From Omnitrophica WOR_2 bacterium GWF2_43_52 (GTDB taxonomy: Bacteria > Omnitrophota > Gorgyraeia > Gygaellales > UBA12090): 64,000 nt of DNA. Positions 11,886 through 60,700 of the stretch are shown piece by piece. Position numbers and translations under genes: made by a program. The stretch spans positions 4,912 to 68,911 of the forward strand of contig MHGF01000038.1 in NCBI GenBank assembly GCA_001805445.1, given 5' to 3'. Positions within the stretch are counted from its first letter, which is position 1. Each line of letters starts with the position of its first letter. Under the pieces are notes generated by a model. It saw only the letters and a list, made by a program, of their open reading frames with translations, was not told the DNA's origin and searched no databases.

Positions 11886-11921
11886 CTCCTATGTTAATGC
11901 CAGGCATAGACAACTCGCATA

Positions 11922-21237: not shown

Positions 21238-21261
21238 ATTTTTCTTAGGCTAAACCGTATA

Positions 21262-34450: not shown

Positions 34451-34594
34451 TTCACCCTCCTGTTAACTATCAATAAGTGTGGGTCAATAGTCTATAGCCG
34501 ATAGTCTATCCTTTAGTTTTTCTATTGACCATCGACTATCGACCTTCAAATATCATCTACAACGTATAATTTATAACTCATAACTTCTCGCTTC

Positions 34595-35869: not shown

Positions 35870-35966
35870 CAGGTCTCCCTATGTTAAAAATAATGTTTCG
35901 TGTACCGTTTACCATATCGGTACACGGTAAGCGGTACACGGTACACGCAACAATTATTCTTACGTA

Positions 35967-38390: not shown

Positions 38391-38515
38391 CTATCTCCTC
38401 TTAAAAGTAAATAATCGCAAGTCTCTAGTCTATAGACGATAGCCATGGTTTCTTTCTTTTATTGACTATCGGCCATCGACTATTGACCCTTCATTATTTT
38501 CTCCTTAACGCGGTT

Positions 38516-39646: not shown

Positions 39647-39663
39647 CGCCGCTCCTTTTTTCC

Positions 39664-40935
39664 TTAATGTAATGCCTTGAGCGCATCATCTATTGTGTTA
39701 ACCGTATATCCCAAGTCTTTATCTGTGTGTACCGCTGAAATAAAACATACCTCATCCGGCGCAGGCGAAAGATACACGCCTTTTGATAATACTGAATGAA
39801 AAAATGAGGCAAATTTACTTTTATCCTGAAACCCAAAATGAAACATCGGGCCAAAATGGTTTAAGCGCGCCGAAACGCCGCTCTTTCGTAGTATCTTTTC
39901 TAACTCCTTATAAAATGCCTCACTTTTCTGGTTAAGCTTTTTATAGAAGTCTTTTGCCCTAAGCATTGTAAACGTAGCAAGCCCCGCGCTTACCGCCACC
40001 GGATTTCCCGATAACGTCCCTGCCTGATACACGCTGCCTAAGGGCGCGACCATCTCCATTATTTCCTTCTTTCCGCCAAATGCGGCCAGAGGAAACCCTC
40101 CGCCGGCAATCTTGCCCAAGCAGGTCAGGTCAGGTTTAATCTTAAAAGCCTTCTGTATACCTCCAAAGCAAAAACGAAAACCGGTAATTACTTCATCAAA
40201 TATAAGCAAGGCCCCGCATTGCTTAGTTATTTTGCGCAGGCCTGCCAGAAAGCCTTTTTCTGGCAGGATCAAGCCGGTATTGGCGGCAATCGGCTCGACA
40301 ATCACACAGGCAATATCGTTATCCCGGGAAAAGGCGTCCTGAACCTGTTCTAAATTGTTATAATCAAGCTCTATTACATTTTCCTCAAGATTCTTCGGAA
40401 TGCCCGCGCTTCGTCCGCTTAAGAAAAAATCGCTATGTCCGTGATAACATTCCTTGAATTTGACGATTTTATTTTTCTTGGTATATGCCCTTGCCAAACG
40501 GATAACTGACATTGCCGCTTCTGTGCCGGAACTTACTACACGCGCCAATTCTATGGATGGAATTGCCTGAATAATACGTTTGGCAAATTCTATCTCAAGT
40601 TTCGTCGCCGCGCCATAGCTGGTGCCTTTTTCTACCGCTTTCTTAACGCAGGCAACAACTCGAGAGTTACTATGGCCCAAAAGTAACGCCCCCCAGGACA
40701 TACAATAATCTATGTAGGTTTTACCGTCTTCACCGATGAATTTTGAGCCTGAAGCTCTCTTCACAAATACAGGAGAACCACCCACCGATTTAAAAGAACG
40801 CACAGGGCTGTTGACCCCGCCGGGGATGTATTTTTGAGCCTCTGCAAACAATCGATCATTGGTGTGCCGGTATGCCGGTGTGCCGGTATGCCGGCTAAAC
40901 TGGCTGACTCGTAAACCCGCTAACTGGTTAACCAT
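39664..40935 (-). CDS. hemL: Glutamate-1-semialdehyde 2,1-aminomutase
   Basis: [13 protein letters not shown]...[15 protein letters not shown]...[16 protein letters not shown]. Start taken at MVNQ. The N-terminus carries a 16-nt x2 tandem repeat. Confidence 0.85.
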
Positions 40936-41942
40936 TTTGCCACATCCTTCGCCCAATACGTAATAATAATGTCCGCACCAGCGCGCTTAATGGAAGTCAA
41001 AATCTCTAATGCCAAATCTCTTTCAATATCTTGTGACTTGTGACTTGTGACTTGTGACTGCGAATAGCTTTTCACCATCGCATACTCACCGCTGACATTA
41101 AACGCAGCTAATGGAACGGAAAACTTCTCTTTGGCCTTAGCGATTATATCCAGATAAGAAAGCGCCGGCTTGACCATCACTATATCCGCGCCTTCCTGAA
41201 TATCCGCTTCTATTTCCCTTAAGGCCTCGTCAGAATTTCGATAGTCCATTTGATAGGACTTCCTGTCCCCAAATTTCATCATACTTCCAGCGGCTTCCCT
41301 AAAAGGCCCGTAAAATCCCGAGGCGAATTTAGCGGAATACCCCATAATCGCTGTCTCCATAAAGCCCTTTTCATCCAGAGCTTTACGGATAGCTCCCACC
41401 TGCCCATCCATCATACTGCTGGGAGCCACAATATCCGCCCCCGCCCGGGCGTGGGAAAGCGCGATTTTGACTAAAACCTTTAGGGTCGCATCATTATCCG
41501 GTATTGCATTTAGCGATGGACGATGGACGATGGACGATGGACGACAATTTTTAAGAATTCCGCAATGCCCATGGCTGGTATATTCACACAAACATACATC
41601 AGTAATTACAACAAGCTCATCCCCGAAATTTTTCTTTAATAGCGCTACTGCCTTCTGAATGACACCATCTTCCTGATAGGCGCTTACCGCCTTTTCATCT
41701 TTATTTTTGGGAATACCAAAGAGGATAATTGAATTTATGCCTACTCGCTTTGCTTCCTCCACATCCTTAAGCAATCTATCGCCAGAAAACCTGAATATCC
41801 CCGGCATAGACTGAATTGGCTGCTTTAACTGCTTACCTTCGCGGACAAAATAAGGCATCACCAAATGTGATACCTTTAGGTTGGCTTGGGCAACCAAATC
41901 CCGTAAAGCAGCATTTTTTCTTAATCTTTTTAACCTACGCAT
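40920..41942 (-). CDS. hemB: Porphobilinogen synthase (delta-aminolevulinate dehydratase)
   Basis: CLCEYTSHGHCG, GADIVAPSSMMDGQVGAIR, GDRKSYQMD, VKPALSYLD, SGEYAMVK. It contains two in-frame heptanucleotide x4 repeat insertions. Confidence 0.9.
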   Translation of the reverse strand: MRRLKRLRKNAALRDLVAQANLKVSHLVMPYFVREGKQLKQPIQSMPGIFRFSGDRLLKDVEEAKRVGINSIILFGIPKNKDEKAVSAYQEDGVIQKAVALLKKNFGDELVVITDVCLCEYTSHGHCGILKNCRPSSIVHRPSLNAIPDNDATLKVLVKIALSHARAGADIVAPSSMMDGQVGAIRKALDEKGFMETAIMGYSAKFASGFYGPFREAAGSMMKFGDRKSYQMDYRNSDEALREIEADIQEGADIVMVKPALSYLDIIAKAKEKFSVPLAAFNVSGEYAMVKSYSQSQVTSHKSQDIERDLALEILTSIKRAGADIIITYWAKDVAKWLTS

Positions 41943-42354
41943 TTTCTATAACCAATTCCTCTTCAATAATCTTGCCTTCCACAATCTTAAACGAACGCAC
42001 CTGCGGCTGTCCGGGATCAGACAAAGATACAATTATATAAGAACTCTCCGGGTAAAACGCCAGTTCAATATCTCTTTGTGACGGATAGGCTTGGCTGTCA
42101 ACGTGAGAATGATATATGGCAACCATTTCTATCGCCTGCTTACGCAGTTCTTTAAACACCGCCAACTGTTCCTTAGGGTCAATATGATAACAGAGCTTGG
42201 GGCTGTCGGAAATATTAGTTAAAGGAAATATTTTTTCAATACGCGCGGCTTTACCGGCAAGGATCCCACAGGTTTCTTTCTGCGGCTCCTTAAGGCAATA
42301 AGCAAGAAGCTCGTTATACATAGCCTTTTTTATGAAAATCTTTGACTTGCGCAT
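41935..42354 (-). CDS. JAMM/MPN+ zinc metalloprotease (Mec+/CysLP/QbsD-like isopeptidase for ubiquitin-like sulfur carriers)
   Basis: ETCGIL...YHSHVDSQAYPSQRD gives the E...HxH-x7-S-x2-D JAMM motif. Confidence 0.75.
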   Translation of the reverse strand: MRKSKIFIKKAMYNELLAYCLKEPQKETCGILAGKAARIEKIFPLTNISDSPKLCYHIDPKEQLAVFKELRKQAIEMVAIYHSHVDSQAYPSQRDIELAFYPESSYIIVSLSDPGQPQVRSFKIVEGKIIEEELVIENA

Positions 42355-44025: not shown

Positions 44026-44760
44026 CTACGTAAGCTGAAGCGCGTCATCCGAACGCACTTTCTTAAGCGGCCGGGTATGAATACCGCACTCACCGCCGCA
44101 CTTGCTGGTGCCAATCCAGCGGCCAGCGCGCTCGTTATCTTCGCTGGTAATCTTGGTGCAGGGCGCGCAGCCTAAAGAACGGTACCCTTCGGCATATAAA
44201 GAATTAACCTTAACTTGATATATCGCTAAATACTGCCAGACCTCTCTTTCTTTCCAGATAAGGATAGGATTAAGTTTCACCAATCCCTTGTCCCGCTCCT
44301 CAACCTCTTTATAATCAGTGCGAGTCCTGCCTTCGGTGCAGCGCAGCCCGGTAACCCAGCATTTGACTTTCATCTCTTCAATTGCCCGGCTGACCGGCTC
44401 AACTTTTAAAAGGTCGCAGCATTTATCAGGGTCAGTTTCATAAAGCTTATCCGCTATCTTCACATCGTTTTTAAAGATTTTAAGCTCAGGATATTTTGCT
44501 ACTTCCTCATTCATAAACTGAATAGTCTCTGCCGGTTTAAAGCGGGTAGTAACAATAAACCCGCGGATTTTCGGGCTTACCTTTTTTGCCAAATCCCAGA
44601 CCACGACTGAATCTTTACCCAAACTGTTTGCCACCACCAACCCGTCGCCGTATTTCTGATACGCCTCTTTTATCAGCTGAAGCGACCTGTCCACCTTTTC
44701 CTTAAAATTCAGCTTTTCCACCAATTCTTTCAAATCGTCTTTATTGTTCAACAGAGTCAT
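44026..44760 (-). CDS. cysH: Phosphoadenylyl-sulfate / adenylyl-sulfate reductase (CysH family, Fe-S type)
   Basis: PAPS-reductase fold with a C-terminal GGECGIHT (ECGLH-type) motif. The cysteine pairs CCDLL and GCAPC are typical of APS reductases. Confidence 0.8.
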   Translation of the reverse strand: MTLLNNKDDLKELVEKLNFKEKVDRSLQLIKEAYQKYGDGLVVANSLGKDSVVVWDLAKKVSPKIRGFIVTTRFKPAETIQFMNEEVAKYPELKIFKNDVKIADKLYETDPDKCCDLLKVEPVSRAIEEMKVKCWVTGLRCTEGRTRTDYKEVEERDKGLVKLNPILIWKEREVWQYLAIYQVKVNSLYAEGYRSLGCAPCTKITSEDNERAGRWIGTSKCGGECGIHTRPLKKVRSDDALQLT

Positions 44761-44908: not shown

Positions 44909-45349
44909 TCAAATAGAATATACTGCTTCCTTTTTCCCCGCCTTAGCCTGAACGGCTAAGTCCTCAAATGTCACCTTATCCACTATATTGGAAGTGGCCA
45001 TAGCCACCTCTTTACAGACATTCCTTAAAACGCAAAGCCCCATGCTTTTACAGCCGGAATACCTCTCCTCAACACAGGCAATCGGCTCAATCGGCCCGTC
45101 AATGAACCTGACGACCTCTCCCATCTTTATATTTTTAGGATGCCGGGATAAAAGATACCCACCGTTTATACCACGCTTACTCTCAACAAACCTTCCTTTC
45201 TTCAAATCCAGAAGCACCTGCTCTAAAAACTTCACCGGCGCATCCGCCCTTTCGGCAAGCTCGTGAATAGTCACCACTCCCTGGTTATAATGTAAGGCTA
45301 GGTCCAAGACCGCCCTTAAAGCGTAATCCCCTCTATAAGTTATTCTCAT
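44909..45349 (-). CDS. Rrf2-family transcriptional regulator (IscR/CymR-like, three conserved Cys)
   Basis: MRITYRGDYALRAVLDLA...HELAERADAPVKFLEQVLLDLKKGRFVESKRGINGGYLL, then C-x6-C-x5-C. Confidence 0.8.
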   Translation of the reverse strand: MRITYRGDYALRAVLDLALHYNQGVVTIHELAERADAPVKFLEQVLLDLKKGRFVESKRGINGGYLLSRHPKNIKMGEVVRFIDGPIEPIACVEERYSGCKSMGLCVLRNVCKEVAMATSNIVDKVTFEDLAVQAKAGKKEAVYSI

Positions 45350-48748: not shown

Positions 48749-49144
48749 CTACGCTATTTCAATATCCTTAGAGCTCTGCCACAACCCGTGGATGTTACAA
48801 TAGGAAGACGCAAAAAGGGTGCCTGCTTTATCAGACTTAAACTTCAGCACAACCTCAGGATGGGTAAAAATGGTGCTGGAATCTGCCCCTTGCGCTGATT
48901 CGCCATGAGCAACGAACTCTGAGCGCCCTAATTGATACGGGAATTTCTCGCCTTTGCCAAGAAAATATACCTCTATCCAGCGGATGTGGTGGGCAGTGGT
49001 ATTAGGATGCGCTATTTCTTTACCCACGCTTATCGTAACCGAAACCCACTCGCCTTTCGTTGCCTTGGCCGCCGCGTCAATAACTGGAACGTGCTTTTCC
49101 TTCTTCCAATCCGCGCTCTGGTATAACTCTTTTAATTCTGCCAT
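48749..49144 (-). CDS. sor: Superoxide reductase (neelaredoxin/desulfoferrodoxin centre-II type)
   Basis: EKHVPVI motif. HP..TTAHHIRWIE and C-x2-H ligands. Confidence 0.75.
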   Translation of the reverse strand: MAELKELYQSADWKKEKHVPVIDAAAKATKGEWVSVTISVGKEIAHPNTTAHHIRWIEVYFLGKGEKFPYQLGRSEFVAHGESAQGADSSTIFTHPEVVLKFKSDKAGTLFASSYCNIHGLWQSSKDIEIA

Positions 49145-49189
49145 ATAATCCTCCCCTTGTATAATAGGCATGAGTAGCTACGTTAAATA

Positions 49190-49389: not shown

Positions 49390-50007
49390 CTATTTTAATT
49401 TATCTCCCACCTTACCCACTAAATCCTTTCCTGGGGTAAGAGTTTTCTTACCCGGTTCCCATTTTGCCGGACACACATGTACCGGATTTTCCCGGACATG
49501 TTTAAAAGCCTTGAGCTTCCGCAAGAGTTCATCCGAATTCCTCCCCACGGGGAAAAAATTCACCTCTGATGCCATAAGCTTTCCGTCAGGATCAATAATA
49601 AACGTCCCCCTCAAATCCAAACCGCTTGTTTCATCATACACCCCAAAAGCCCTCGAGACATTGTGCGTAGGGTCTGCTGCCATGGGATATTTAATATCCG
49701 AAAGCAGTTTTTCCGCAGCATGCCAGGCATAATGCACATAATGGGTATCAGTACTCACTGACACGAGTTCAGCCCCTTCTTTCTTTAAGAGTTCATATTT
49801 TTCGCCCATATCCGCCAACTCCGTAGGGCAGACAAAGGTATAATCTGCCGGATAGAAAAACAGAATCAGCCAATTGCCTTTCTTGGCAATATCTGAAAAT
49901 TTCACCTTGCCAAAATCTTTTTTATCAGGTAAATATACATCCATCTCAAAATCCGGAATCTTATGTCCTATGCTTAATACTTTTAATTGCTGTTCTTCCA
50001 TCATCAT
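49390..50007 (-). CDS. Peroxiredoxin (typical 2-Cys AhpC/Prx1 type)
   Basis: FYPADYTFVCPTEL peroxidatic Cys motif and C-terminal VCPAKW resolving Cys. Confidence 0.85.
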   Translation of the reverse strand: MMMEEQQLKVLSIGHKIPDFEMDVYLPDKKDFGKVKFSDIAKKGNWLILFFYPADYTFVCPTELADMGEKYELLKKEGAELVSVSTDTHYVHYAWHAAEKLLSDIKYPMAADPTHNVSRAFGVYDETSGLDLRGTFIIDPDGKLMASEVNFFPVGRNSDELLRKLKAFKHVRENPVHVCPAKWEPGKKTLTPGKDLVGKVGDKLK

Positions 50008-50024
50008 CCTCCCTAGTATAAAAA

Positions 50025-50531
50025 TCAGGTTAATTGCTTTATCATCTCTCTGCAAAATGCCGGAAGATCATACGGGGTGCGCGAGGTAATTAAATTACCA
50101 TCCACTACCACCTCTTTATCCAGAAACTGCGCTCCCGCGTTTACCACGTCATCCTTGATTGCCGAAAAACTGGTCGCCTTCTTGCCTTTGAGTATTCCCG
50201 AGGATACTAAGACCCATCCTCCATGACAAATAGAGGCAACTACTTTGCCTTGAGCATATAAATCCTTGACGAAATTATTCACCTCCTTATACCTGCGTAA
50301 AATATCCGGAGCATATCCTCCAGGGATAACCACGCCGTCAAAATTTTGCGCCCGGGCGTCTTTTATAGAAAGCTCCTCAGGCGCGGGGTATCCTTCCTTG
50401 CTTTTGTATTCTTTCTTTTGCCCTGTTCCAACGAATACAGCCGTAATGCCTTCTTCTATCAGGCGAAAGTAGGGGTACCAAACTTCTAATACTTGGTACT
50501 GATCCTCAACCAGTATGGCTATTTTTTTCAT
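50025..50531 (-). CDS. DJ-1/PfpI-family protein
   Basis: VVASICHGGWVL nucleophile-elbow cysteine motif. Confidence 0.8.
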   Translation of the reverse strand: MKKIAILVEDQYQVLEVWYPYFRLIEEGITAVFVGTGQKKEYKSKEGYPAPEELSIKDARAQNFDGVVIPGGYAPDILRRYKEVNNFVKDLYAQGKVVASICHGGWVLVSSGILKGKKATSFSAIKDDVVNAGAQFLDKEVVVDGNLITSRTPYDLPAFCREMIKQLT

Positions 50532-50532
50532 C

Positions 50533-51384
50533 TTATACCCCTAACTCATCAATGATGCGCGCCATAATAAAATCATTTTCGGTAAGGCCGCCGGCGCTAT
50601 GCGTCGTAAGAGTAACTTTTAATTTATTGTAATTTATAGTCATTACAGGATGATGCCCCTGCTCTTCAGCAATGATAGAAATCAAGTCCAGAAAATATTT
50701 TGCCTCCACAAAATCCTTATACTTAAATTCTTTAGTGATTTTTTTATCTTCTACCAATTGCCAGCCCCGATAACGCGCAAGCAACCTTTCAATTTCCTCC
50801 TTAGGAAGCGCCGGAACTGCTCCTTCGCAGGCCTTACAATGCGCGGGAAGCTCTTCTTTTTTGCCATACTCTGGATTCTTGATTACCCCTTCTAAGCTCC
50901 TGAGGACGGCCTCATAATCCGGGGAAGCAGTTACTTCTTCCACTATCTGAATATAGCGTATCACATCGTTTTTATCTATGACAATCACAGCGCGGGCTAA
51001 AAGATTAAGCTCTTTTATCAACACCCCGTAATTTATGCCAAAAGACGAAGCCTTATAATCAGAGAACAGGGTAATATTTTTTATATCGTAACTCGCGCAA
51101 AACCTCTTTTGGGCAAACGGCAAATCCTTGCTTATGCCTACAATAACACTATCAGGGCTAAGCCCTGAAGCTCTTCTATTAAACTCCTTTACCTGCATAT
51201 CACACACAGGAGTATCTATTGAGGGGAAAGAAGTGATTACCTTTACTTTCCCCTTCAGATCAAAAAGGCTTATTTCTTTTAAGTCGCCGTTTACTACTTT
51301 AAAATTGGCAGCGGCATTGCCAACCGAAATCGCCCTTCCCACAAGGGTTAAGGGATTTCCTTTAAAGGTTACTTTTCTCATCAC
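50533..51384 (-). CDS. Fusion of thiol peroxidase (Tpx) and pterin-4a-carbinolamine dehydratase (PCD/DCoH)
   Basis: N-terminal SFPSIDTPVCDMQ is the Tpx peroxidatic Cys. C-terminal AEEQGHHPVMTINYNKLKVTLTTH is the PCD [EQ]-x3-HHP motif. Confidence 0.75.
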   Translation of the reverse strand: MMRKVTFKGNPLTLVGRAISVGNAAANFKVVNGDLKEISLFDLKGKVKVITSFPSIDTPVCDMQVKEFNRRASGLSPDSVIVGISKDLPFAQKRFCASYDIKNITLFSDYKASSFGINYGVLIKELNLLARAVIVIDKNDVIRYIQIVEEVTASPDYEAVLRSLEGVIKNPEYGKKEELPAHCKACEGAVPALPKEEIERLLARYRGWQLVEDKKITKEFKYKDFVEAKYFLDLISIIAEEQGHHPVMTINYNKLKVTLTTHSAGGLTENDFIMARIIDELGV

Positions 51385-51398: not shown

Positions 51399-52181
51399 TT
51401 ATAATTTATGGAAATACCCTGCCACCAATTTTCCTAAAAAGAATCCGGTTCCGCATGATAGCGCGCCTATACCCAATGTTTCTAAACCGCTAAGAAACCA
51501 ATTAATTTTTGTCACCTTAGACTTAGAAACCCCTAAGATAAAAAGAAACAACAAAACAAAAGTAGCGGAAAAAAATAACGCGTTAGATACATTGTCTATT
51601 ATAAAAAACGGAACGAGCGCCGGAAGCGCGCCTATGACAAATGAAGCGCAGGAAATAACACCTATCTCAAACGGGTTATCAATCAACTCTGAAGTTATGC
51701 CTATTTCTTCCTGCACCATAAACTTAAGCCAGCGCTCTTTATCCGCGGTAATACGCGTTACCCCTATCTCTTGTTCCTCTTTGGTAAAACCCATATCTTC
51801 AAAAATCTCGCGTACCTCTTGAATTTCCCGCTGGGGCATTTCTTCTATTTCCCGCCTTTCCCGTTCAATCTGATTCTCAAAAAAATGCTTCTGGGCTTTG
51901 GTTGAGATATACGCGCCAAAAAATATTGCAAGGGACCCCGAAACAATCTGGATGACGCTTGCTAAAATTATTCTCTCTTTGGTCACCAGGGCAACCGACA
52001 CACCGGCGATAAAAGAGACGGTGGTAACTAATCCGGTATCAACAGCATAGACGATATCCCTGATTATCCTGCCTTTTTTACTATGCCAGCTTTCACCATG
52101 CCAGCTTTTGAGCCTTTCGGCAACAGAGCTTTCTAATTGCCGCATCGGGTTATTTGTTTCTGCCTCGCGTAGGCTCTTCAT
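51399..52181 (-). CDS. VIT1/CCC1-family (DUF125) iron/manganese transporter
   Basis: TM helices flank a glutamate-rich cytosolic metal-binding loop (ERERREIEEMPQREIQEVREIFE). Confidence 0.65.
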   Translation of the reverse strand: MKSLREAETNNPMRQLESSVAERLKSWHGESWHSKKGRIIRDIVYAVDTGLVTTVSFIAGVSVALVTKERIILASVIQIVSGSLAIFFGAYISTKAQKHFFENQIERERREIEEMPQREIQEVREIFEDMGFTKEEQEIGVTRITADKERWLKFMVQEEIGITSELIDNPFEIGVISCASFVIGALPALVPFFIIDNVSNALFFSATFVLLFLFILGVSKSKVTKINWFLSGLETLGIGALSCGTGFFLGKLVAGYFHKL

Positions 52182-52368
52182 AGGTAAGTGCCCTAATAAT
52201 GCCTATAGTTGCGCCCGTATCATCGGTTGTCGCGCAATCGCTCACCGAAAACACCTTCTTAATGGCATTTTCCTTAATAAAACCATTCACCTGCTGGTCT
52301 AAGCTAATCAATTCCTTATGAGTCTGGAATATTTTCAACTCATTGGTAAACGTCTTTACTTTTATCAT
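52150..52368 (-). CDS. Small hypothetical protein (72 aa)
   Basis: ORF only; no motif recognised. Confidence 0.3.
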   Translation of the reverse strand: MIKVKTFTNELKIFQTHKELISLDQQVNGFIKENAIKKVFSVSDCATTDDTGATIGIIRALTYEEPTRGRNK

Positions 52369-52440
52369 CGCTAGCTACCCTCCTTTTTTATCATGTCACG
52401 CTCATACCTCAAGCCTTTTGGTTATCCTCATCTTTCCCTA

Positions 52441-52815
52441 TTATTGTGTATGGCAAAATGCGGCTTTAATTCCCCTACCCTCTAATTCCCGTAATTTCGC
52501 CTGGGAACAGCGCCGGCATAAAAAAACAGCCTTGGCGTCTGAACGGTCGTAATTTTCCGTCTTAACCAAGCGCCATAACGCTCCTGGGTTTCCGCAAGAT
52601 TGGCAGGGGCTTTCTTCTTTTACCTGCCAAAGTTCTGTGATTTTATTTTTCTTGGCATTAAAAATAAACCTATCTACCCAAAAGAATATCGCTGAACCGA
52701 TAAGGTTGGCAATAATCGTAGAGCTTATCCCCATGCCCAGATTCCGCACGACCAGCCATAAAATTGGCGTGCTTAACTGCCATCGAAAAGCATAGATGAT
52801 AAATTTTTTAAACAT
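52441..52815 (-). CDS. Hypothetical membrane protein with a C-terminal CxxC...CxxC zinc ribbon (GtrA-like N-terminus)
   Basis: Three TM helices, then CQSCG...CRRCS. Confidence 0.35.
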   Translation of the reverse strand: MFKKFIIYAFRWQLSTPILWLVVRNLGMGISSTIIANLIGSAIFFWVDRFIFNAKKNKITELWQVKEESPCQSCGNPGALWRLVKTENYDRSDAKAVFLCRRCSQAKLRELEGRGIKAAFCHTQ

Positions 52816-53011
52816 TGTTAGCCTCTCCCAACTTTTTCTTCAATTCTTCAATTTCTGCCTCTAACTCCTCAATCTCAATCCACATCGCGGCCGGATCATT
52901 GTGTTCAAACTTCCCGCACTTCCTATCTCTATAGGAAGGAAGCCTCTTTTTCATATCATCCAGTTCTTTTACCTTAGCCTCTACTATTTTTGCAAGTTCT
53001 GCAGTATCCAT
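52808..53011 (-). CDS. Small hypothetical coiled-coil protein (67 aa)
   Basis: ORF in operon position upstream of the GtrA-like gene, with only a 4-nt overlap to it. No motif. Confidence 0.3.
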   Translation of the reverse strand: MDTAELAKIVEAKVKELDDMKKRLPSYRDRKCGKFEHNDPAAMWIEIEELEAEIEELKKKLGEANNV

Positions 53012-53381
53012 AGAAATGTATCCTGTGATATTCTACTACCATCCCCGAACGCCTGCTTATTGCTTTATCTAAATCAGCCAAGAGAGGCTCATCTAAATCA
53101 AAAATCTGTTTGCAGTCAGTGCAGAAAAAATGGTAGTGGTTACGTATATCCGCGTCATAATGGCTGCTGTATTTGCCGCAGGTTAATTCTAAGACCTTAC
53201 CTTCCTCTTTAAGAAGGTTCAAATTCCTATATACCGTCCCCATACTAATCGCGGGAAGGCGCCTTCTTACCATATGAAAAAGCGTATCCGCCCTTGGATG
53301 CGTTTTTACCTTGGTAAGCTCTTCTAGAATAATCCGCCTTTGCTTGGTATTCCTTTTTTTATTGTTAGCTTCTTTTTTCAT
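52974..53381 (-). CDS. Fur-family transcriptional regulator (PerR/Fur-like, structural Zn CxxC x2)
   Basis: KQRRIILEEL...HPRADTLFHMVRRRLPAISMGTVYRNLNLL, then CTDCKQ...CRTCKN. Confidence 0.8.
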   Translation of the reverse strand: MKKEANNKKRNTKQRRIILEELTKVKTHPRADTLFHMVRRRLPAISMGTVYRNLNLLKEEGKVLELTCGKYSSHYDADIRNHYHFFCTDCKQIFDLDEPLLADLDKAISRRSGMVVEYHRIHFYGYCRTCKNSRG

Positions 53382-53412: not shown

Positions 53413-53582
53413 AGAATAACAAAAAGATAAACTTTGTCAAGAAAAATTTTGGGAGTTTCCTACTAGACTGTTACATTAGTTTGCAGTAGTCATTTATTTA
53501 CACCTGCGACGAGGTATCACCTCGTCGCGAGGCGATACCTCGTAGATGAACGCAAGGTTATCTTTTTAGATTTTTGAAACCA

Positions 53583-54750: not shown

Positions 54751-57700
54751 CTATTGCGCGCTATAATTCGCCGGCTCCTTGGGCATAACGGTAATTTTGC
54801 TTAAGGCAAACTGCACATCCCGCGCGGGCTTATCCGACTCAAGCAAAATGAGCATCTCCTTTAAGGCTAAAGCAGTAGACACTCCCCTGTCCTCTTCTAA
54901 CCTCAATATCTCCGCAATACAGCCAAGTATTCTACCTATCTCCTGAGCATAGCCTTCTTCTTTTTGCAAAGATGAAGATGCTAAAGCATACTCCCTTATC
55001 CTTTCGCTTGAAGGCATAATCCCGGCATTGACCATAGCCTGAATCTGTTTTAGCTCGTTTTCCAAGTTGATATTGAGGTTTAAGGCCGAGCTGGCTATAG
55101 GCATATTGGTTATCAAGGGCTGATTTAGGGCAGACTGGGTTACGATGGGCAGGGCAGTGAGGTCAATCCCACCAGGTTTATTCTGTAGTGCAGAGGAAGA
55201 GGCAGGTTCAAGCGACTTTAGCTCAAGGGGCGAGGCGGCGGCTGCTTGTAATTCCAGAGGCCTTCCTTTTATCTCTAAAAGCTTGGCTTTTAATATCCCT
55301 TTTTCTGCTTCGGAAATTCCGCGCTTAGGCGGAAAACGGGTGGTAAGAAAAGATATAAGTTTTTCTATCTCCTTCTCTTCCCAATCAAATATTATTTCCT
55401 CTATATTCTTTAATACCGGACCCATCGCTATGTCTCCTAAACCATCCGCGGAAAATAATTCTTTACTTATTTTCTTACGGTCTTCTTCGGATAAACGTTT
55501 TTCTCTCTGTTGGTTTAGGCTTTCCTTAATTTCTTCAGCAGAAGGTTTAAAGTCTTTGAGATTCTCTTTAGTAAGAGTATATGGCATACTGAATTCTGTC
55601 TTAACATCAGAGTTTGATGAAGAAAAATCAAAATAAAGGTCTGTATCCAACGTATTCTTTTTCACTGCGGTTATTCCTTCTTGTCCCCCGTATTTCAAAG
55701 CTTCTTTTCCTGCGGATGATGCATCCGAGAATGAAACCGCGGGCACCATATCTTTTAACAAAAGCTCTGCCAGCCCCTCAAAAACCACCTTGTTTAGGTC
55801 CAGGTTGCTGGCGTTCCAAAGCGGCTGGACTACCACCCCTTGAGGGGTCAATACCAAAACAGCATTAGCTATCATTTTGTCATTGCCATTATATATCCTT
55901 AAGAATAAAGCATTAGTTTCAAGGGCATGAATCATGGGCATCTGATTGTTGCTCTTATGGGGAGCGAAACAGCCCGGAATGCCCACCGCGTAAGTATCTT
56001 TTAAGAAATCCTGGACTATTTCTACGGTTACCTTTTCTGAAGAAATACCTTTGCTTTTATACACCTCTTCAAATCTCTTTGTTTCTCCAAGGATACGTTT
56101 TACTGAATCTTTTACATCTTGCGATAATTTCTCGTTATTAAGAAAATATTCTTTGGCAAAAGCTTCTGCTTCCTGGTGGGAAGTTAGGCCTTTCTCTCTA
56201 TACGAAGCACCTATCTCAATATTATGCATATCGGCAAGCTCAATTAACTGCTCGTTCTGTTGTTTCATCTTATCCGTAATGTCTTCCCCGATGCCTTCCA
56301 TGGGAAGGGTCTTTCTTATGCCTTTATCCCAAAGAAGCGAGCTGTAGCCGCTCTTAAGAAGTTCCGCGTAAACTTCTTTGTTCCACTCTGCTTCTTTAAA
56401 AAGCCACTGGTTGAATCCTTTGGTGTCGCGAAATTCAAGCAGTTTATTAATTGAGAGGGCCGCTTTTTCACATATCCCCGGATACTCACCTTGTAAGCGA
56501 AAATAGAGGCCCACAAAATTACCTATATACGTAGCCATGTAATGAGTATCTAAAAATTCCTTTTCTTCTTCTGTTAAATCTCTATTGATTATCTTCTTAA
56601 ACGCATCGGACTTTACTTGCCGATTAATGATACTCAATTCGCTTAAGAGCTTCTTATCGCCTATACCATCGTTCTTGCTATAGCGGGCTAAAATATCATC
56701 TATCTTCTGGCTGGCATTGTATTCTAACGAAGCACCTTTAAGAATAATCCCTGTTTCTATCAAATAACCCATGGCTCCCCTTAATACTTCGTATTTTTTC
56801 TCAAGGTTCAGAAGGAGCTTTACCTGAGGAGCCATGGCCGGGATGCTGGATAATATATCATCATCCATGGCGGATTTAATAATATCTAAGAAAGAGGTAT
56901 CTCTTTTTCTTAAAAAATCCTCGAAAAAAGAAAGAGCAGGAACCATCTCCGCCTTGCCAAGATAATTAATTATTTCTATAATTTCGCTACGCTCTTTATT
57001 GATAAATTCCACTACCTTATCCCTTAATTTCTGTTCAGATAGGCCAAAAAGGTCTATTATAGATTCGGCTATCAGCTGACTTTCAGGTTTAACAATATTT
57101 ATTAAGGCATTAAGAATATTAACCTTTAGCTCCGGCGCGATTCCTTGATGCTTAAAGACGCTTTTCACGAATGTAGGTATATCCGCTCCAGACTCTTTGA
57201 TAACCTCATTCAAAGAGCCGTCAAGAATTGGCCTGATAAGGAAATCCGGCTGAGCCAGGGAAGAGAATATAAGCCTTACCTTAGCGGCAGAGGGTGAAAG
57301 TTTGGGGTAAAAAACTTCAAGAATTACTTCCAGATTATCAGCAAAAATATTTCTTTCTCCTAACGCATTCATGATAGCTGTTTTATAGTCCTCAGAAGCT
57401 GAGAGAAAATCTTTTCCTAACTCGGGGAGGAGTCTTACTACGGCTCTTCGCGCTTCTTCTCTTGCTGAATCAACAATGCCCTGATTGAATTGTCTTACCA
57501 ACATGTTCATAAAAATGGTTTTTAGGGCATCCGAGGCTGAGGGGAAGTCTTTTTCTAACTGGGGAATAAGTCTGGCGAACGCTTTTTGTGCCAGCTCATA
57601 ACGGCTACTATGGCTTATTAAATCTATAGCCTCAAGGATGGTGATTTTGTAAGTGTCGTATGAAACTGAGGGAAAATCTTCTTCTGTCCGGGGAATTAGG

Positions 57701-60700
57701 CTCCTTAAAGCTGTTTCATTCTTCAACTTTATTAAGTCTTTAACAATGTCAGCCCTGCGAATTTCAGAGAATAGCCTAAAAATACGCGCTAAAGCCTCTT
57801 CTACTACTTTTTCATCAATATAGTCATAGCCCCCATAGCCCCCCGCGCTTAGTGCATATACTAAATCATTAAAGATGGCGGTTTGCCTGACTTCTGAAAC
57901 TAAGGGGAAGTCTTTTTCCATCGGGGGAATGAACTTTAAAAAGACTTCCCTGCAGAGATACATCTCATTACGGTGAAGATTATCTTTTAAAAACTTAATG
58001 ATTATATCTTTAAAGCCTTCTGATAATATAGAGTAGTCTTCTACTAATTGCAGGAGGAATATTTCTAAGCTTTTGTTTTGACCACTACTCCCGTCTGTTA
58101 ACTTATTAAAAATGACGATTTTCTGGGCCTCAGAAGATGAGGGGGTAATACGCACTAAAGATGGATGCTCATACTTTAACTCATCAAGGATAACTTTTTG
58201 ATAGGCTTCTGAGGCTAGAGGAAAGTCTTTTTCCATCTGGAGGTGGATATTTTCTAAGCTTACGCTTGTTACTCTTGGTATTTGTTTTAATTTACCAACG
58301 TCGGATTTAATAACAAAATTTTTAACAATATCAAGGATGGCTTTCTTCTGGACTTCGGAGGACAGGCTAAAAATACTCGTTATTAGAACACCAGTATCGG
58401 AAAGATGATGGTCTCTAGTAGTCGTTTCCATTAATAAGGTTTTAATTGTGGTAGTTCTAATATGCTCACTAGCTACACTTAAAATGCTCCCTAAGAACTC
58501 TGCTGTTTTTCTATTTTCATAGAAATCTCTTATTAACTTATCAACAATGTCGTTTTGTTGAACCACAGAGGCAAGAGGGAAAATACGCGCTAAGGATGCG
58601 TACTGATACCTTAACGCATCAAGGATGAATGTTTTATAGGCGTCTAAGGCTGAAGGAAAGTCTTTTTCCATCTGGGGAATAAGTCTGGTTAAGACTTCTC
58701 CTGTTGCGGAGTTAAAAGAACTCACACTATAAACTCTTCTTAAAGTATTATGGATGGCCATTTTGTAAACCTCATTAGAGGTTGAGAGAAAGTCTTTTTT
58801 TAATTGGGGACTGAGTCTCTCTAAGGCTTTAATTGCTGTTTTTTGTCGTTCCGAACCATAAGTAATAGCCATATCTCTAAGAATATCAAGAAAGGCGGTT
58901 TTCTGATACTCAGAGGTTGAGGGAAGAATACGCTCTAAGGCGTCAGCTACTGGTTGAAAAACATCATATTGAACCAACTTTACAAAAAGATTAAAGCTGG
59001 CGGTTTTATAATCATCATTAGACATTAAGGGAAAATCTTTTTCTAATTGGGGGATAAAACTCTCTAAGGCTTTTATTGCTTTAGAACTGTTAGTTCCTAT
59101 AAGAGCATTAATGATGGTGGCTTTCTGGGCCTCAGAGGCTGAAGGGAAAATACGCGCTAAGGATTCGTGCTCATGCCTTAACTCATCAAGGACGACTGTT
59201 TTATAGGCTTCAGAGGCCAAAGGAAAATCTTTTTCTAATTGAGGAATGAGTCTTGCTAAGGGTTCTTTTGCTGTGTGAGAATACACCCGCCTATTAACTT
59301 CTCTTAAAGCATTCAAGATGGCTATTTTGTGGGCATCAGAGGATGAGGGAAAAATACGCTCTAAATCCCTGACTGGCGCTTTAAAACCAGTAAAAGCAAC
59401 TCTTTTTAAGAAACGAATGCGGAAGGTTTGATAGGCTTCAAAGGTTGAGCGAAAAATACCCTTGGGTTTTATAGAAACGATTGCATCTGGCCGAAGAGGT
59501 ACTGTATCCAACGGAGAGATAGTGTCTGCTTTTTCCTGAACCGCCGACGAAACCATCTTTAGATCTACCTCCGCAGGCAAACCTGTAACCTTAAATGGCC
59601 CTATCGTATTGCTTCCCATGGGCAATTCTCTTTCTGCCTTTATCACAACTACAGGACTGCCGGCTACAGGTACATCTCCTGGGACCTGTGTTGTAAGAGG
59701 GATCCCTACCATTAAATTTAACCCCCCGCTCATATAACTTCTGATAGTCTGTCCGTAGGCTGTAGGTATGGTAGCTTTGTGGTTATACTCGCCTTGCTTA
59801 AATGACTTCCGGTATTGTTGAAAGTAGGTCTGCTTGTCATAAGGCTCTTGTGAGGTAAGGTTAGTTAAGTCTCCTGAGTCTATATCAGGGACGGTTCTCC
59901 CAAGTAAACTACTACTTTCTGAGAACCGTCCCTTATACTTCTGCTTAAACCATTGTGCCAGGATTAATGAGTAATAGACTTGCCTAAGATTAGCGTATCT
60001 TTTGGAAGTGTTTATCTCTTTAGTAAGCTTGGGGATGATCAGCTCTCTGATAAGCTGAGATGAGTATTCATTAAGCTGTTTTTGGAGTTCGTCTTTAAAG
60101 TTGTATTGCGGTGAATCTTTGAGATAATCTTGCTCCAACATTACCTTTAAGGTTGCTTTGTAGATATAGGCACTTGTGGTGAGCGCAATCGAACCATTGT
60201 CTTGGGATTCGCGGATGATAACTTCATCCGGCACGATCCATGGCCGGGTTAAGGTGGGGATAGTAATGTTGCTGCTTGTGCCATAGAGCTCTTCGGCTTT
60301 TTGATATAGCTTATCCCAGTACTCTTTGCCTTCTCTGGTTTCTGGTGAGGTGAATTGCGCGGTGTCTTTCTTCAGCTGGAGGTCTGCTTCAAGAAGTATC
60401 TTACCTACATCAGTCTGGGCTAAGTCATCATCAATGATATTATCAGGGGCATCGGGCCTTAAATTTACCCAGAAACTTGAGTTTGGCAGGGTTAAGCCGA
60501 TGAAGAAGTATTTAAGCAGTTCATTAGTAACTTGTTCCAATGCGAGTTTGGAATCAGGTGGCGCGCTTCCTTTGTCTAAAAGTACGCTGAAGCTATTATT
60601 GAGATTATCATAGCCTATAGAGCGTAGATGTAAGGGACGGAATTTATCCTGATTAAAACTATTGGCATGTGCTTGCTTAAAATATCCAGAGATATCTATT

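What the first reader, a model, noticed from the sequence alone, without database searches (positions are those of the whole stretch)
50533..51384. Thiol peroxidase fused to pterin-4a-carbinolamine dehydratase
Tpx (atypical 2-Cys peroxiredoxin) and the PCD/DCoH EQGHHP domain are normally separate proteins with unrelated roles. Their fusion is in an oxidative-stress operon (SOR, Prx, DJ-1, VIT, Fur/PerR-like). It suggests either coupling of pterin recycling to peroxide detoxification or a moonlighting DCoH-like dimerisation module.
Basis: partly seen in the sequence, partly recalled or inferred. Interest (0 to 1): 0.5.

Follow-up and report, generated by a model that had tools for sequence, protein, structure and literature searches.

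The report
Thiol peroxidase fused to pterin dehydratase
One gene in an oxygen-stress operon of an uncultured anaerobe (Omnitrophota) joins a complete peroxide-destroying enzyme to a complete pterin-cofactor-recycling enzyme; the fusion is real and kept in at least 68 species, but nobody has studied it, and it hints that the pterin enzyme has a role in oxidative damage control.

Summary
Window 50533-51381 (minus strand; ATG at 51381, alternative GTG at 51384) is one uninterrupted 282/283-aa ORF. It holds a full-length Tpx-type atypical 2-Cys peroxiredoxin (NCBIfam equivalog 195 bits, cut-off 123) joined by about 15 residues to a full-length pterin-4a-carbinolamine dehydratase (Pfam 100 bits, cut-off 26).

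It is not an artefact. The identical protein is on 21 contigs, and the architecture recurs in more than 120 clusters at 90% identity and in 68 species-level genomes. Most are Omnitrophota; others are labelled anammox Planctomycetota, Chlamydiota, Coxiellaceae-like Gammaproteobacteria and Ratteibacteria.

All catalytic residues of both halves are conserved. The PCD half is the CxxC-bearing type of Pseudomonas PhhB. The CxxC co-varies with the PCD catalytic residues, not with the Tpx cysteines.

The gene sits in a PerR-like/VIT1/DJ-1/Prx/SOR operon. Related loci add flavodiiron protein, rubredoxin, rubrerythrin, Grx/TrxR and, in 21 of 68, a 2-oxoacid:ferredoxin oxidoreductase.

Most likely it is a bifunctional oxidative-stress enzyme whose PCD half salvages oxidised reduced-pterin or folate cofactors. 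That coupling is inferred, not shown. I found no pterin-dependent partner gene and no literature. Verdict: new variant of a known kind, moderate interest.

The parts
50533..51381 (-). Tpx-PCD fusion gene. 282 aa from ATG 51381 (a GTG at 51384 would add one Met); TAA stop at 50533-50535.
50887..51381 (-). Tpx (atypical 2-Cys peroxiredoxin) domain, residues 1-165. Carries the PxxxTxxC motif with peroxidatic Cys60 (codon 51202-51204), resolving Cys95 (codon 51097-51099) and Arg130.
   Evidence: The AF2 model superposes on S. aureus Tpx 3p7x with TM 0.95 and rmsd 1.4 A.
50839..50886 (-). Inter-domain spacer, residues 166-181 (..NPEYGKKEELPAH). Its length is constrained: the LLAR-to-CxxC distance is 55 aa in 142 of 182 homologues.
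   Evidence: pLDDT is 66-69 here.
50827..50838 (-). CxxC motif (Cys182-Lys-Ala-Cys185). It is the N-terminal motif of PhhB-type PCDs, not part of Tpx.
   Evidence: It is invariant in the main clade. It is present in 9 of 9 nearest stand-alone PCDs, in 120 of 120 further stand-alone relatives, and in P. aeruginosa PhhB. It co-varies with the PCD signature.
50536..50826 (-). Pterin-4a-carbinolamine dehydratase (PCD/DCoH, PF01329) domain, residues 186-282. Carries the activity signature E239-x3-H243-H244-P245-x5-Y251-x9-H261-x8-D270 (HHP codons 50647-50655).
52974..53381 (-). Fur-family regulator, first gene of the cluster. Best NCBIfam matches are PerR models, below their cut-offs.
   Evidence: The best promoter-like site, 53413-53440 (-), lies just upstream.
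52150..53011 (-). Three small ORFs (67, 124 and 72 aa) with no family match, lying between the regulator and VIT1. Unannotated ORFs of similar size occupy the same position in a 74%-identical locus.
51399..52181 (-). VIT1-family (vacuolar iron transporter-like) membrane protein. Ends 17 nt before the fusion start.
50025..50531 (-). DJ-1/PfpI-family protein. Starts 1 nt after the fusion's stop. It is the commonest immediate neighbour of the fusion elsewhere (20 of 68 loci, including Jettenia and Loosdrechtia).
49390..50055 (-). AhpC/Prx1-type peroxiredoxin with a 1-cysPrx_C tail. The true start is probably an internal ATG near 50007.
48749..49171 (-). Superoxide reductase-type protein (desulfoferrodoxin ferrous-iron domain), last gene of the cluster.

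Best explanation
The gene encodes a genuine two-enzyme protein that works in the oxygen/peroxide defence of an anaerobe.

Shown: the N-terminal half has every defining feature of a Tpx thiol peroxidase, and the C-terminal half has every sequence feature of a catalytically active PhhB-type pterin-4a-carbinolamine dehydratase. The two are joined by a spacer of constrained length. The gene is embedded in a same-strand, tightly packed operon of peroxide, superoxide and iron-stress genes headed by a PerR-like regulator.

Inferred: on exposure to O2 or peroxide the operon is derepressed. The Tpx half reduces H2O2 or organic hydroperoxides through Cys60 and Cys95 and is re-reduced by a thioredoxin/glutaredoxin system; Grx and TrxR genes lie in the same cluster in about 20 of 68 related loci. 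In parallel, the PCD half dehydrates 4a-hydroxy-tetrahydropterins that form when reduced pterin-type cofactors (folates, molybdopterin, other tetrahydropterins) are oxidised. This returns them to the reducible quinonoid dihydro form before they rearrange into dead-end products.

On this reading the fusion places cofactor salvage beside peroxide removal and under the same regulation. Direct hand-over of an intermediate between the halves is not required.
For: Domain identity and completeness.

Conservation of T57, Cp60, Cr95, R130, CxxC and E/H/H/P/Y/H/D: 64 of 66 full-length genomic copies and an 82-sequence alignment. The strict published PCD activity signature is met by the window protein and by 110 of the 120 closest relatives. 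Eleven of the genomic-locus copies that fail it differ only by Q for E at the first position.

The PCD half aligns end to end, CxxC included, with P. aeruginosa PhhB encoded next to phhA (36% identity, E 3e-23).

Context: 49 of 68 loci have at least one ROS-defence neighbour. Counts are rubredoxin 30, FDP 26, DJ-1 22 (20 adjacent), SOR 22, PNPOx-like 22, Grx 21, TrxR 20, rubrerythrin 19. Fe/Mn-SOD is adjacent in a gammaproteobacterial copy.

PerR-like regulator and promoter-like site.

Geometry: spacer length is constrained, and AF2 gives pTM 0.82 for the two-domain chain.
Against: No aromatic amino acid hydroxylase and no pterin, folate or Moco gene was found in the 64-kb window or among the neighbours examined in related loci; the seed-based survey of all loci carried no such seeds. 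The nearest stand-alone PCDs have heterogeneous neighbours. So nothing independent ties the PCD half to a particular pterin.

In 8 of 19 divergent fusion clusters the PCD signature has decayed while the peroxidatic Cys is kept in 7 of them. In one cluster (P0159 = L076) the opposite holds. Either activity can therefore be dispensable.

No enzymology, expression data or literature exists for the fusion. pTM is only indirect evidence for a fixed inter-domain geometry.
Confidence: 0.45

Rival explanations
1. Substrate-channelled cofactor repair. The two halves act in sequence on one molecule. The Tpx half reduces a pterin or folate 4a-hydroperoxide (the O2/H2O2 adduct of a tetrahydropterin) to the 4a-carbinolamine. 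The PCD half then dehydrates this to the quinonoid dihydropterin. The adjacent CxxC dithiol might even reduce that product back to the tetrahydro form.
For: On paper, the alcohol product of a peroxidase acting on a 4a-hydroperoxypterin is exactly the PCD substrate (inference from the two established reaction chemistries). The fusion order and spacer length are fixed and the predicted arrangement is compact (pTM 0.82). The CxxC co-varies with the PCD catalytic residues. Both halves are strictly conserved together in the main clade. A thiol-reducing system is co-encoded in many loci.
Against: The Tpx half looks like an ordinary Tpx: 46% identical to S. aureus Tpx at rmsd 1.4 A, with no sign of a new substrate pocket. 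Lineages exist that keep only one of the two catalytic centres. PhhB-type PCDs carry the same CxxC without any peroxidase. Free pterin 4a-hydroperoxides are short-lived (general knowledge, not tested here).
Confidence: 0.15
2. The PCD domain is mainly a structural module, for oligomerisation or protein docking as in DCoH or the Rubisco factor Raf2. It organises Tpx dimers into a larger assembly or tethers the peroxidase to a client such as the oxygen-sensitive 2-oxoacid:ferredoxin oxidoreductase. Its dehydratase chemistry would be irrelevant.
For: In 8 of 19 divergent fusion clusters the PCD catalytic signature is lost but the domain, including the invariant Trp207, is retained. The PCD fold is a known homo-oligomer and protein-binding module (established knowledge of DCoH-HNF1 and Raf2; PMC5972614 links COG2154 to RAF2). 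OFOR genes abut the fusion in several phyla. No pterin-dependent partner was found.
Against: In the main clade every catalytic residue (H243, H244, P245, Y251, H261, D270) and the CxxC are conserved at 55-75% overall identity in 64 of 66 genomes, which is more than a scaffold needs. Non-catalytic PCD-like proteins typically lose these residues, and this protein does not.
Confidence: 0.2
3. The CxxC in the linker is a built-in thioredoxin-like relay that re-reduces the Tpx disulfide, as the Grx domain does in peroxiredoxin-glutaredoxin hybrids. The PCD fold would merely carry it.
For: The CxxC is invariant in the main clade and lies between the domains.
Against: The motif is ancestral to stand-alone PCDs that have no peroxidase: 9 of 9 nearest relatives, 120 of 120 further relatives, and PhhB. 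Across divergent fusion clusters it co-varies with the PCD signature (10/1/1/7, Fisher p = 0.0012, no phylogenetic correction) and not with the Tpx Cys pair (p = 0.35). Six clusters keep Cp and Cr without the CxxC. The C-terminal domain is not a thioredoxin fold.
Confidence: 0.04
4. Artefact: two adjacent genes merged by a sequencing or assembly error.
For: None found.
Against: The identical protein is on 21 contigs. Full-length ORFs are present in 68 species-representative genomes from independent projects, including contigs of 0.3-2 Mb. Spacer length is constrained.
Confidence: 0.01

Closest known systems
Bacterial thiol peroxidase Tpx (atypical 2-Cys peroxiredoxin; e.g. S. aureus 3p7x, E. 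coli 1qxh)
   Same: The N-terminal 165 residues are a complete Tpx. NCBIfam equivalog score is above cut-off. The PxxxTxxC motif, Cp60, Cr95 and Arg130 are present. It is 46% identical to 3p7x, and the predicted fold superposes with TM 0.95 at 1.4 A.
   Different: Canonical Tpx is a stand-alone protein of about 165 aa. Here it carries a 117-residue C-terminal extension (spacer plus PCD). No solved or described Tpx has this.
Pseudomonas aeruginosa PhhB (bacterial pterin-4a-carbinolamine dehydratase, phhRABC operon)
   Same: Same PF01329 fold, same N-terminal AHC-x-AC motif and same catalytic signature. 36% identity over the whole domain, E 3e-23.
   Different: PhhB is a free 118-aa protein encoded beside its client, phenylalanine 4-monooxygenase. 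Here the domain is fused to a peroxidase, sits in a ROS-defence operon, and has no hydroxylase nearby.
Mammalian PCD/DCoH (PCBD1/2), bifunctional dehydratase and HNF1 dimerisation cofactor
   Same: Homologous domain (E about 1e-13 to 1dch and 1ru0) with the same His-His-Pro...His...Asp centre. It sets a precedent for a PCD domain having a second, protein-binding role.
   Different: It has no CxxC N-terminal motif. Its moonlighting partner is a eukaryotic transcription factor. It is not fused to any enzyme.
'Partnerless' COG2154 PCDs of organisms without aromatic amino acid hydroxylases (Naponelli et al. 2008, as summarised in PMC3223725)
   Same: The protein meets their activity signature and occurs without a recognisable hydroxylase nearby. 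Their proposal of a role beyond hydroxylase support (Moco metabolism) parallels the cofactor-salvage reading here.
   Different: Those are stand-alone proteins, and no link to peroxidases was reported in what I could read. The original paper was not available to me.
Peroxiredoxin hybrid proteins (e.g. Prx-Grx fusions such as Haemophilus PGdx; cited from general knowledge)
   Same: A peroxiredoxin fused to a second domain that bears a CxxC.
   Different: In those hybrids the partner is a thioredoxin-fold reductant of the Prx. Here the partner is a PCD fold, and its CxxC pre-dates the fusion and tracks PCD residues, not the Prx cysteines.
Non-catalytic PCD-like proteins (plant Raf2, carboxysomal acRAF)
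   Same: The same fold used as a protein-binding module. Some divergent fusion clusters with decayed catalytic residues may resemble this.
   Different: The window protein and its main clade keep all catalytic residues.

Membership tests
Tpx subfamily of peroxiredoxins | Curated family model score above cut-off over the full length | tested here: met
   NF001808 thiol peroxidase equivalog scores 195.2 bits (cut-off 123), residues 2-164 against profile 1-165 of 167.
Tpx subfamily of peroxiredoxins | PxxxTxxC active-site motif with a peroxidatic Cys and the conserved Arg | tested here: met
   P53-SID-T57-PV-C60 and R130 are present. They are invariant in 82 aligned relatives and in 64 of 66 genomic copies.
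Tpx subfamily of peroxiredoxins | Resolving Cys about 35 residues downstream of the peroxidatic Cys (atypical 2-Cys mechanism) | tested here: met
   C95 in the RFC motif is invariant in the main clade. It is lost in several divergent clusters.
Tpx subfamily of peroxiredoxins | Tpx three-dimensional fold | tested here: met
   The AF2 model (pLDDT 85.6) against 3p7x gives TM 0.95 (normalised to the target) and rmsd 1.4 A over 164 columns. This is a predicted structure, not an experimental one.
Tpx subfamily of peroxiredoxins | Thioredoxin-dependent hydroperoxide reductase activity | not testable with these tools
   Requires recombinant protein.
Pterin-4a-carbinolamine dehydratase (PF01329 / COG2154, EC 4.2.1.96) | Family model match above the curated cut-off over the full domain | tested here: met
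   PF01329 scores 100.1 bits (cut-off 26), profile 2-91 of 91. NF002017 scores 84.5 bits (cut-off 80). Four other PCD equivalog models match but fall below their cut-offs.
Pterin-4a-carbinolamine dehydratase (PF01329 / COG2154, EC 4.2.1.96) | Activity signature [EDKH]-x3-H-[HN]-[PCS]-x5,6-[YWF]-x9-[HW]-x8,15-D (Naponelli et al. 2008, quoted from memory) | tested here: met
   A regex match gives E239...D270 in the window protein. The signature is met in 110 of 120 close relatives, and 11 of the failing genomic-locus copies differ only by Q at position 1.
Pterin-4a-carbinolamine dehydratase (PF01329 / COG2154, EC 4.2.1.96) | Homology to a biochemically established PCD across the whole domain | tested here: met
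   36% identity, E 3e-23, to P. aeruginosa PhhB encoded next to phhA, CxxC included. E is about 1e-13 to rat and human DCoH structures.
Pterin-4a-carbinolamine dehydratase (PF01329 / COG2154, EC 4.2.1.96) | A pterin-dependent aromatic amino acid hydroxylase partner in the genome or neighbourhood | tested here: inconclusive
   None was found in the 64-kb window or in the flanks of related loci examined by Pfam; the seed-based survey of all loci held no hydroxylase seed. The rest of the genome could not be searched. Many bona fide PCDs lack such a partner.
Pterin-4a-carbinolamine dehydratase (PF01329 / COG2154, EC 4.2.1.96) | Dehydratase activity on 4a-hydroxy-tetrahydropterins | not testable with these tools
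   Requires an enzyme assay or complementation.
Non-catalytic PCD-like scaffold (Raf2/acRAF type) | Loss of the catalytic His-His...His centre | tested here: not met
   H243, H244 and H261 are all present and conserved. The feature is met only in divergent clusters such as P0136 and P0140.
Peroxiredoxin-reductant hybrid (Prx-Grx/Trx fusion) | The fused partner is a thioredoxin-fold domain whose CxxC serves the peroxiredoxin | tested here: not met
   The partner is PF01329, not a thioredoxin fold. The CxxC is ancestral to stand-alone PCDs and co-varies with PCD residues, not with the Tpx cysteines.

The most novel reading that the evidence does not exclude
The fusion is a dedicated repair enzyme for oxygen-damaged reduced pterin or folate cofactors in anaerobes. 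The Tpx half reduces the cofactor's 4a-hydroperoxide to the 4a-carbinolamine. The PCD half dehydrates it to the quinonoid dihydro form. The conserved CxxC next to the PCD site returns it to the tetrahydro state at the expense of the thioredoxin/glutaredoxin system. This would give 'partnerless' PhhB-type PCDs and their unexplained CxxC a general function in cofactor damage control.
Probability: 0.12. Interest if true: 0.8.

Novelty: new variant of a known kind. Interest (0 to 1): 0.5.

Why it matters
PCD-family proteins are widespread in organisms that have no aromatic amino acid hydroxylase. What they do there has been an open question since the 2008 COG2154 study.

A fusion to a thiol peroxidase that is conserved, catalytically intact on both sides, and always found in O2/ROS-defence gene clusters is a concrete Rosetta-stone clue. 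It suggests that in these anaerobes the dehydratase works on oxidatively damaged pterin-type cofactors.

The idea can be tested with one recombinant protein and a few point mutants. Anammox enrichment cultures that carry the gene could supply expression data. It would also add a new module to the known antioxidant toolkit of strict anaerobes such as Omnitrophota, anammox bacteria and environmental chlamydiae.

If the PCD half turns out to be only a scaffold, the finding is a modest note on domain architecture.

Tried and rejected
1. Assembly artefact: rejected, because the fusion recurs on 21 contigs and in 68 genomes.

2. CxxC as an internal reductant of Tpx: rejected, because the motif is ancestral in stand-alone PCDs including PhhB and co-varies with the PCD signature.

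3. Guilt by association from neighbours of the nearest stand-alone CxxC-type PCDs: uninformative. The neighbours were a P-type ATPase, VWA, a glycosyltransferase, a methyltransferase, DinB_2, DUF218, biotin carboxylase, a CDGSH protein and YfiH-like.

4. Search for independent fusions of PCD to other peroxidase or thiol-redox domains, using a stand-alone PCD profile: saturated by thousands of single-domain proteins, with no other architecture among the best 120.

5. Survey of the whole 64-kb window for hydroxylase, pterin, folate or Moco genes: none found.

7. AFDB Foldseek search for full-length structural relatives: library unavailable. The PDB search returned only Tpx-domain matches.

8. 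Literature: no paper in the searchable library mentions the fusion or links PCD to peroxiredoxins, Omnitrophota ROS defence or anammox Tpx. The Naponelli 2008 paper itself is not held. A paper on tetrahydrobiopterin autoxidation held nothing on 4a-peroxy intermediates.

9. Record labels 'uncultured Planctomycetales/Clostridia/Spirochaetota/Patescibacteria' on TPA bins: treated as unreliable, because these sequences are scattered inside the Omnitrophota radiation (one is 95% identical to an Omnitrophota copy).
Full report
**1. What is in the sequence**

On the minus strand an ORF runs from 51384 (GTG) or 51381 (ATG) to a TAA stop at 50533-50535. The ATG is preceded by AAGGAAGGGAG at a suitable distance. 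It gives a 282-aa product 100% identical over full length to a 282-aa public protein named 'lipid hydroperoxide peroxidase [Omnitrophica WOR_2 bacterium GWF2_43_52]', recorded on 21 contigs. So the window comes from an Omnitrophota metagenome-assembled genome.

Pfam places Redoxin/AhpC-TSA at residues 21-161 and Pterin_4a at 192-281, each covering its whole profile. NCBIfam scores the N-terminal 164 residues as the thiol peroxidase (Tpx) equivalog at 195 bits (cut-off 123), and the C-terminal part as a 4a-hydroxytetrahydrobiopterin dehydratase equivalog at 84.5 bits (cut-off 80).

**2. It is not an artefact and it is under selection**

- All 120 best relatives in a 5.8-billion-protein collection carry both domains at 67-75% identity.
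- An exhaustive HMMER scan of 1.84 billion 50%-identity representatives finds about 28 distinct full-length fusion clusters, down to 34% identity, before stand-alone Tpx proteins begin.
- A scan of one genome per GTDB species used a query spanning the Tpx C-terminus, the spacer and the PCD domain. It returned 70 loci with the contiguous arrangement, 68 of them with full-length ORFs of about 280-300 aa.
- In 64 of 66 full-length copies every key residue is kept: Thr57, peroxidatic Cys60, resolving Cys95 and Arg130 in the Tpx half; Cys182/Cys185; and Glu, His243, His244, Pro245, Tyr251, His261 and Asp270 in the PCD half. An 82-sequence alignment shows the same.
- The spacer is length-constrained. 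The distance from the Tpx LLAR motif to the CxxC is 55 residues in 142 of 182 sequences and 54-57 in 168.
- AlphaFold2 on the 82-sequence alignment gives mean pLDDT 85.6 and pTM 0.82 for the whole chain. This suggests a defined inter-domain arrangement but does not prove it. The weaker regions are the Cp loop, the Cr region and the spacer.
- The Tpx half superposes on S. aureus Tpx (3p7x) with TM 0.95 at 1.4 A. No PDB chain spans both domains.

**3. Taxonomic spread**

Forty-one of the 68 genomes are labelled Omnitrophota. The named divergent cluster representatives (44% and 34% identity) are also Omnitrophota. The fusion also occurs in:

- Candidatus Jettenia ecosi and Candidatus Loosdrechtia aerotolerans (anammox Brocadiales; the latter on a 294-kb contig);
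- Parachlamydiales and other Chlamydiota (one on a 690-kb contig);
- a clade of four Gammaproteobacteria MAGs, including a Coxiellaceae bin;
- a Ratteibacteria bin and a 'Deltaproteobacteria' bin.

On a crude NJ tree the anammox pair is nested among Omnitrophota sequences, which suggests transfer. The gammaproteobacterial copies form their own clade. Several TPA bins labelled Planctomycetales, Clostridia, Spirochaetota or Patescibacteria are scattered within the Omnitrophota radiation (one is 95% identical to an Omnitrophota copy), so I do not trust those labels.

Variants exist:
- Rhodanese-Tpx-PCD (P0121, P0135, and the roughly 400-aa ORFs in three of the Gammaproteobacteria MAGs);
- a weak Rubrerythrin-Tpx-PCD (P0123);
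- Rhodanese-Tpx without PCD (P0141).

**4. The PCD half is PhhB-type, and the CxxC belongs to it**

The linker contains an invariant Cys-x-x-Cys (CKAC here). I first considered that it might be a built-in reductant for the Tpx disulfide. The data say otherwise.

- The nine nearest stand-alone PCDs (107-125 aa; Archaea, Acidobacteriota, Gammaproteobacteria, Scalindua, Zixibacteria) all start 6-10 residues before the same motif: C-V-P-C-E-G-G-V-P-P-L against C-K-A/P-C-E-G-G-V-P-A-L in the fusion.
- A profile of them retrieves thousands of single-domain relatives. The best 120 all carry the CxxC at about residue 9 plus the catalytic signature.
- Pseudomonas aeruginosa PhhB is the classic bacterial PCD, encoded between phhA (phenylalanine 4-monooxygenase) and an aminotransferase. 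It has AHCEAC against AHCKAC here and aligns over the whole domain at 36% identity, E 3e-23.
- Among 19 divergent fusion clusters, presence of the CxxC co-varies with presence of the PCD catalytic signature (10/1/1/7; Fisher p = 0.0012, not corrected for phylogeny). It does not co-vary with the Tpx cysteine pair (p = 0.35). Six clusters keep both Tpx cysteines without the CxxC.

So the fusion joined a complete PhhB-type PCD to the C-terminus of a complete Tpx.

The window protein satisfies the published PCD activity signature [EDKH]-x3-H-[HN]-[PCS]-x5,6-[YWF]-x9-[HW]-x8,15-D. I quote that signature from memory of Naponelli et al. 2008, because the paper itself was not available. [quoted passage not shown] Eleven of the genomic-locus copies that fail the strict regex differ only by Gln for Glu at the first position.

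**5. Genomic context**

In the window the gene lies in a same-strand, tightly spaced cluster:

- Fur-family regulator (52974-53381), with best NCBIfam matches to PerR at 102 bits against 71 for Fur, both below their cut-offs;
- three small ORFs with no family match;
- VIT1 (51399-52181);
- the fusion;
- DJ-1/PfpI (50025-50531), starting 1 nt after the fusion's stop;
- an AhpC-type peroxiredoxin (49390-50055);
- a superoxide-reductase-type protein (48749-49171).

The best sigma-70-like site in the region sits just upstream of the regulator. Such sites are no more frequent here than in shuffled sequence.

The theme is conserved although the gene order is not.
- A 74%-identical homologue has Fur, Prx, VIT1, fusion, DJ-1, hemerythrin and SOR.
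- A 70%-identical one has Rrf2, hybrid-cluster protein, SOR, two ferritins, fusion, flavodiiron protein, rubredoxin, a PNPOx-like gene, rubrerythrin, glutaredoxin and a thioredoxin-reductase-like gene.
- Across 68 loci, 49 have at least one such neighbour. Counts are rubredoxin 30, flavodiiron protein 26, DJ-1 22 (20 directly adjacent, including both anammox genomes), SOR 22, PNPOx-like 22, Grx 21, TrxR 20, rubrerythrin 19, Rrf2 17, HCP 14 and ferritin 13.

A further recurrent neighbour, absent from this window, is a two-subunit 2-oxoacid:ferredoxin oxidoreductase. It is on the same strand in 21 of 68 loci and abuts or overlaps the fusion gene in Omnitrophota, Parachlamydiales, Ratteibacteria and a 'Deltaproteobacteria' bin. 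One gammaproteobacterial copy is followed directly by Fe/Mn-SOD.

None of these neighbourhoods, and nothing in the 64-kb window, contains an aromatic amino acid hydroxylase or a dedicated pterin, folate or Moco gene. The stand-alone relatives have no consistent neighbours.

**6. How it most likely works**

Shown: both halves are complete, both carry their catalytic residues under strong purifying selection, they are joined at a fixed distance, and the gene belongs to an O2/ROS-defence cluster under a PerR-like regulator.

Inferred: the Tpx half reduces peroxides by the atypical 2-Cys mechanism and is recycled by a Trx/Grx system that is often co-encoded. The PCD half dehydrates 4a-hydroxy-tetrahydropterins. 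Because no hydroxylase is in sight and the context is oxidative stress, the most economical source of such carbinolamines is oxidative damage to reduced pterin-type cofactors (folates, molybdopterin, other tetrahydropterins). Dehydration to the quinonoid dihydro form lets them be re-reduced instead of rearranging irreversibly.

I give this parallel bifunctional stress-enzyme reading a confidence of about 0.45.

A sharper version is chemically attractive, because the peroxidase product would be the dehydratase substrate. In it the Tpx half reduces a pterin 4a-hydroperoxide to the carbinolamine that the PCD half then dehydrates, and the CxxC perhaps finishes the reduction. It has no direct support, and I give it 0.12-0.15.

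The scaffold reading (PCD as an oligomerisation or docking module) gets about 0.2. It fits the divergent clusters in which the PCD centre has decayed while the domain and Trp207 persist, and perhaps the OFOR linkage. It does not explain the strict conservation of every catalytic residue in the main clade.

The mosaic decay in divergent clusters cuts both ways. The PCD centre is lost with Cp kept in seven clusters, and Cp is lost with PCD and CxxC kept in one. This shows that each activity can stand alone, which weakens obligatory channelling, but it says little about the main clade.

**7. Comparison with what is known**

Each half is an ordinary member of its family: Tpx on one side, PhhB-type PCD on the other. 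All sequence-level membership tests are met, and activity is untested.

The combination is what is new. No solved structure spans both domains. No paper in the searchable library mentions it. Database names ('thiol peroxidase', 'lipid hydroperoxide peroxidase') ignore the PCD half.

It is not a Prx-reductant hybrid, because the partner is not a thioredoxin fold and its CxxC pre-dates the fusion. In this clade it is not a Raf2-like non-catalytic PCD.

**8. Verdict**

This is a real, ancient and widely conserved fusion, chiefly of Omnitrophota and shared with a few other anaerobic or host-associated lineages. I class it as a new variant of a known kind.

Interest is moderate (0.5). It is not a new principle, but it is a clean and experimentally tractable clue to the long-standing question of what 'partnerless' PCDs do, and it adds a possible new element to anaerobe oxidative-stress defence.

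Noticed in passing
L048 4796-5647 with fusion from 5644; L063 3050-3901 / 3898-; L066 525-3048 / 3070-; L065 fusion to 6498 / OFOR 6501-9016; 21 of 68 loci in all: A two-subunit 2-oxoacid:ferredoxin oxidoreductase (POR+POR_N subunit of about 560 aa, TPP_enzyme_C+PFO_beta_C subunit of about 285 aa) lies on the same strand as the Tpx-PCD gene in 21 of 68 genomes from several phyla, sometimes with overlapping stop and start codons. It is absent around the fusion in this window. It could be the oxygen-sensitive client that is being protected.
   Followed up: partly
P0121, P0135 (398 and 402 aa); L055 5299-6495, L062 5272-6492, L071 5248-6492; P0123 (439 aa); P0141: Triple fusions exist. Rhodanese-Tpx-PCD is confirmed by Pfam for P0121 and P0135; the roughly 400-aa ORFs in three Gammaproteobacteria MAGs are inferred to be the same from their length only. 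There is also a weak Rubrerythrin-Tpx-PCD, and a Rhodanese-Tpx without PCD. The rhodanese cysteine domain hints at a sulfur or persulfide link.
   Followed up: partly
P0136, P0140, P0138, P0129, P0139, P0159 (= L076 5281-5766): There is mosaic decay in divergent fusion clusters. Some lose the PCD His-His centre and the CxxC but keep the peroxidatic Cys. P0159/L076 loses both Tpx cysteines but keeps an intact PCD and CxxC. L073 has lost the Thr, the resolving Cys and one Cys of the CxxC.
   Followed up: partly
P0199 (554 aa, from the representative search): A protein with four tandem Pterin_4a domains (Pfam E 1.8e-113, 4 stretches), a hydrophobic N-terminus and a C-terminal hydrophobic segment. 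It lacks the CxxC and, by the strict regex, the activity signature. Its origin is unknown; its eukaryote-like look is my impression only.
   Followed up: no
window 33255-42354 (-): A sulfur-carrier cluster: ThiF-family E1 (33255-34079), ThiS (34070-34450), a PLP enzyme (34595-35869), a sulfite/nitrite reductase fused C-terminally to TusA (35967-38390, 807 aa), a ThiS-PALP fusion (38516-39646) and a JAB-domain protease (41935-42354). PAPS reductase (44026-44760) and an Rrf2 regulator (44909-45349) lie nearby. It looks like protein-thiocarboxylate-dependent cysteine/methionine synthesis. The SiR-TusA fusion is unusual.
   Followed up: no
window 54751-60789 (-): A 2012-aa ORF with many copies of a repeat of roughly 40-50 residues (…RLIPQLEKDFPSASDAYKT…) and an N-terminal signal-like segment. 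It was not scanned against any library.
   Followed up: no
window 52150-53011 (-): Three small ORFs (67, 124 and 72 aa) between the PerR-like gene and VIT1 have no Pfam or NCBIfam match. The 124-aa one has two hydrophobic segments and a C-terminal CxxC...CxxC. Unannotated ORFs of similar size hold the same position in a 74%-identical locus (L001: 127 and 79 aa), so they are probably real members of the stress operon.
   Followed up: partly
window 4456-13232 (-), 1039-2571 (-): A metal-handling block: a P-type cation ATPase, an RND pump (ACR_tran), a CusB-like membrane-fusion protein with a heavy-metal-binding domain, an outer-membrane factor, plus cupredoxin/COX2-like and YHS-domain proteins.
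   Followed up: no
window 22774-23764 (-): An overlapping HEPN and nucleotidyltransferase gene pair (a toxin-antitoxin-like module), next to ORF6N- and EVE-domain proteins (20308-22398).
   Followed up: no
L009, L018, L029, L038, L058, L060, L067, L070 (TPA bins titled 'uncultured Planctomycetales/Planctomycetia'), L043, L053, L057: The fusion sequences from these bins are scattered inside the Omnitrophota radiation (L070 is 95% identical to Omnitrophota L064), and their neighbourhoods match the Omnitrophota ROS clusters. The taxonomic labels of these records are probably wrong.
   Followed up: partly
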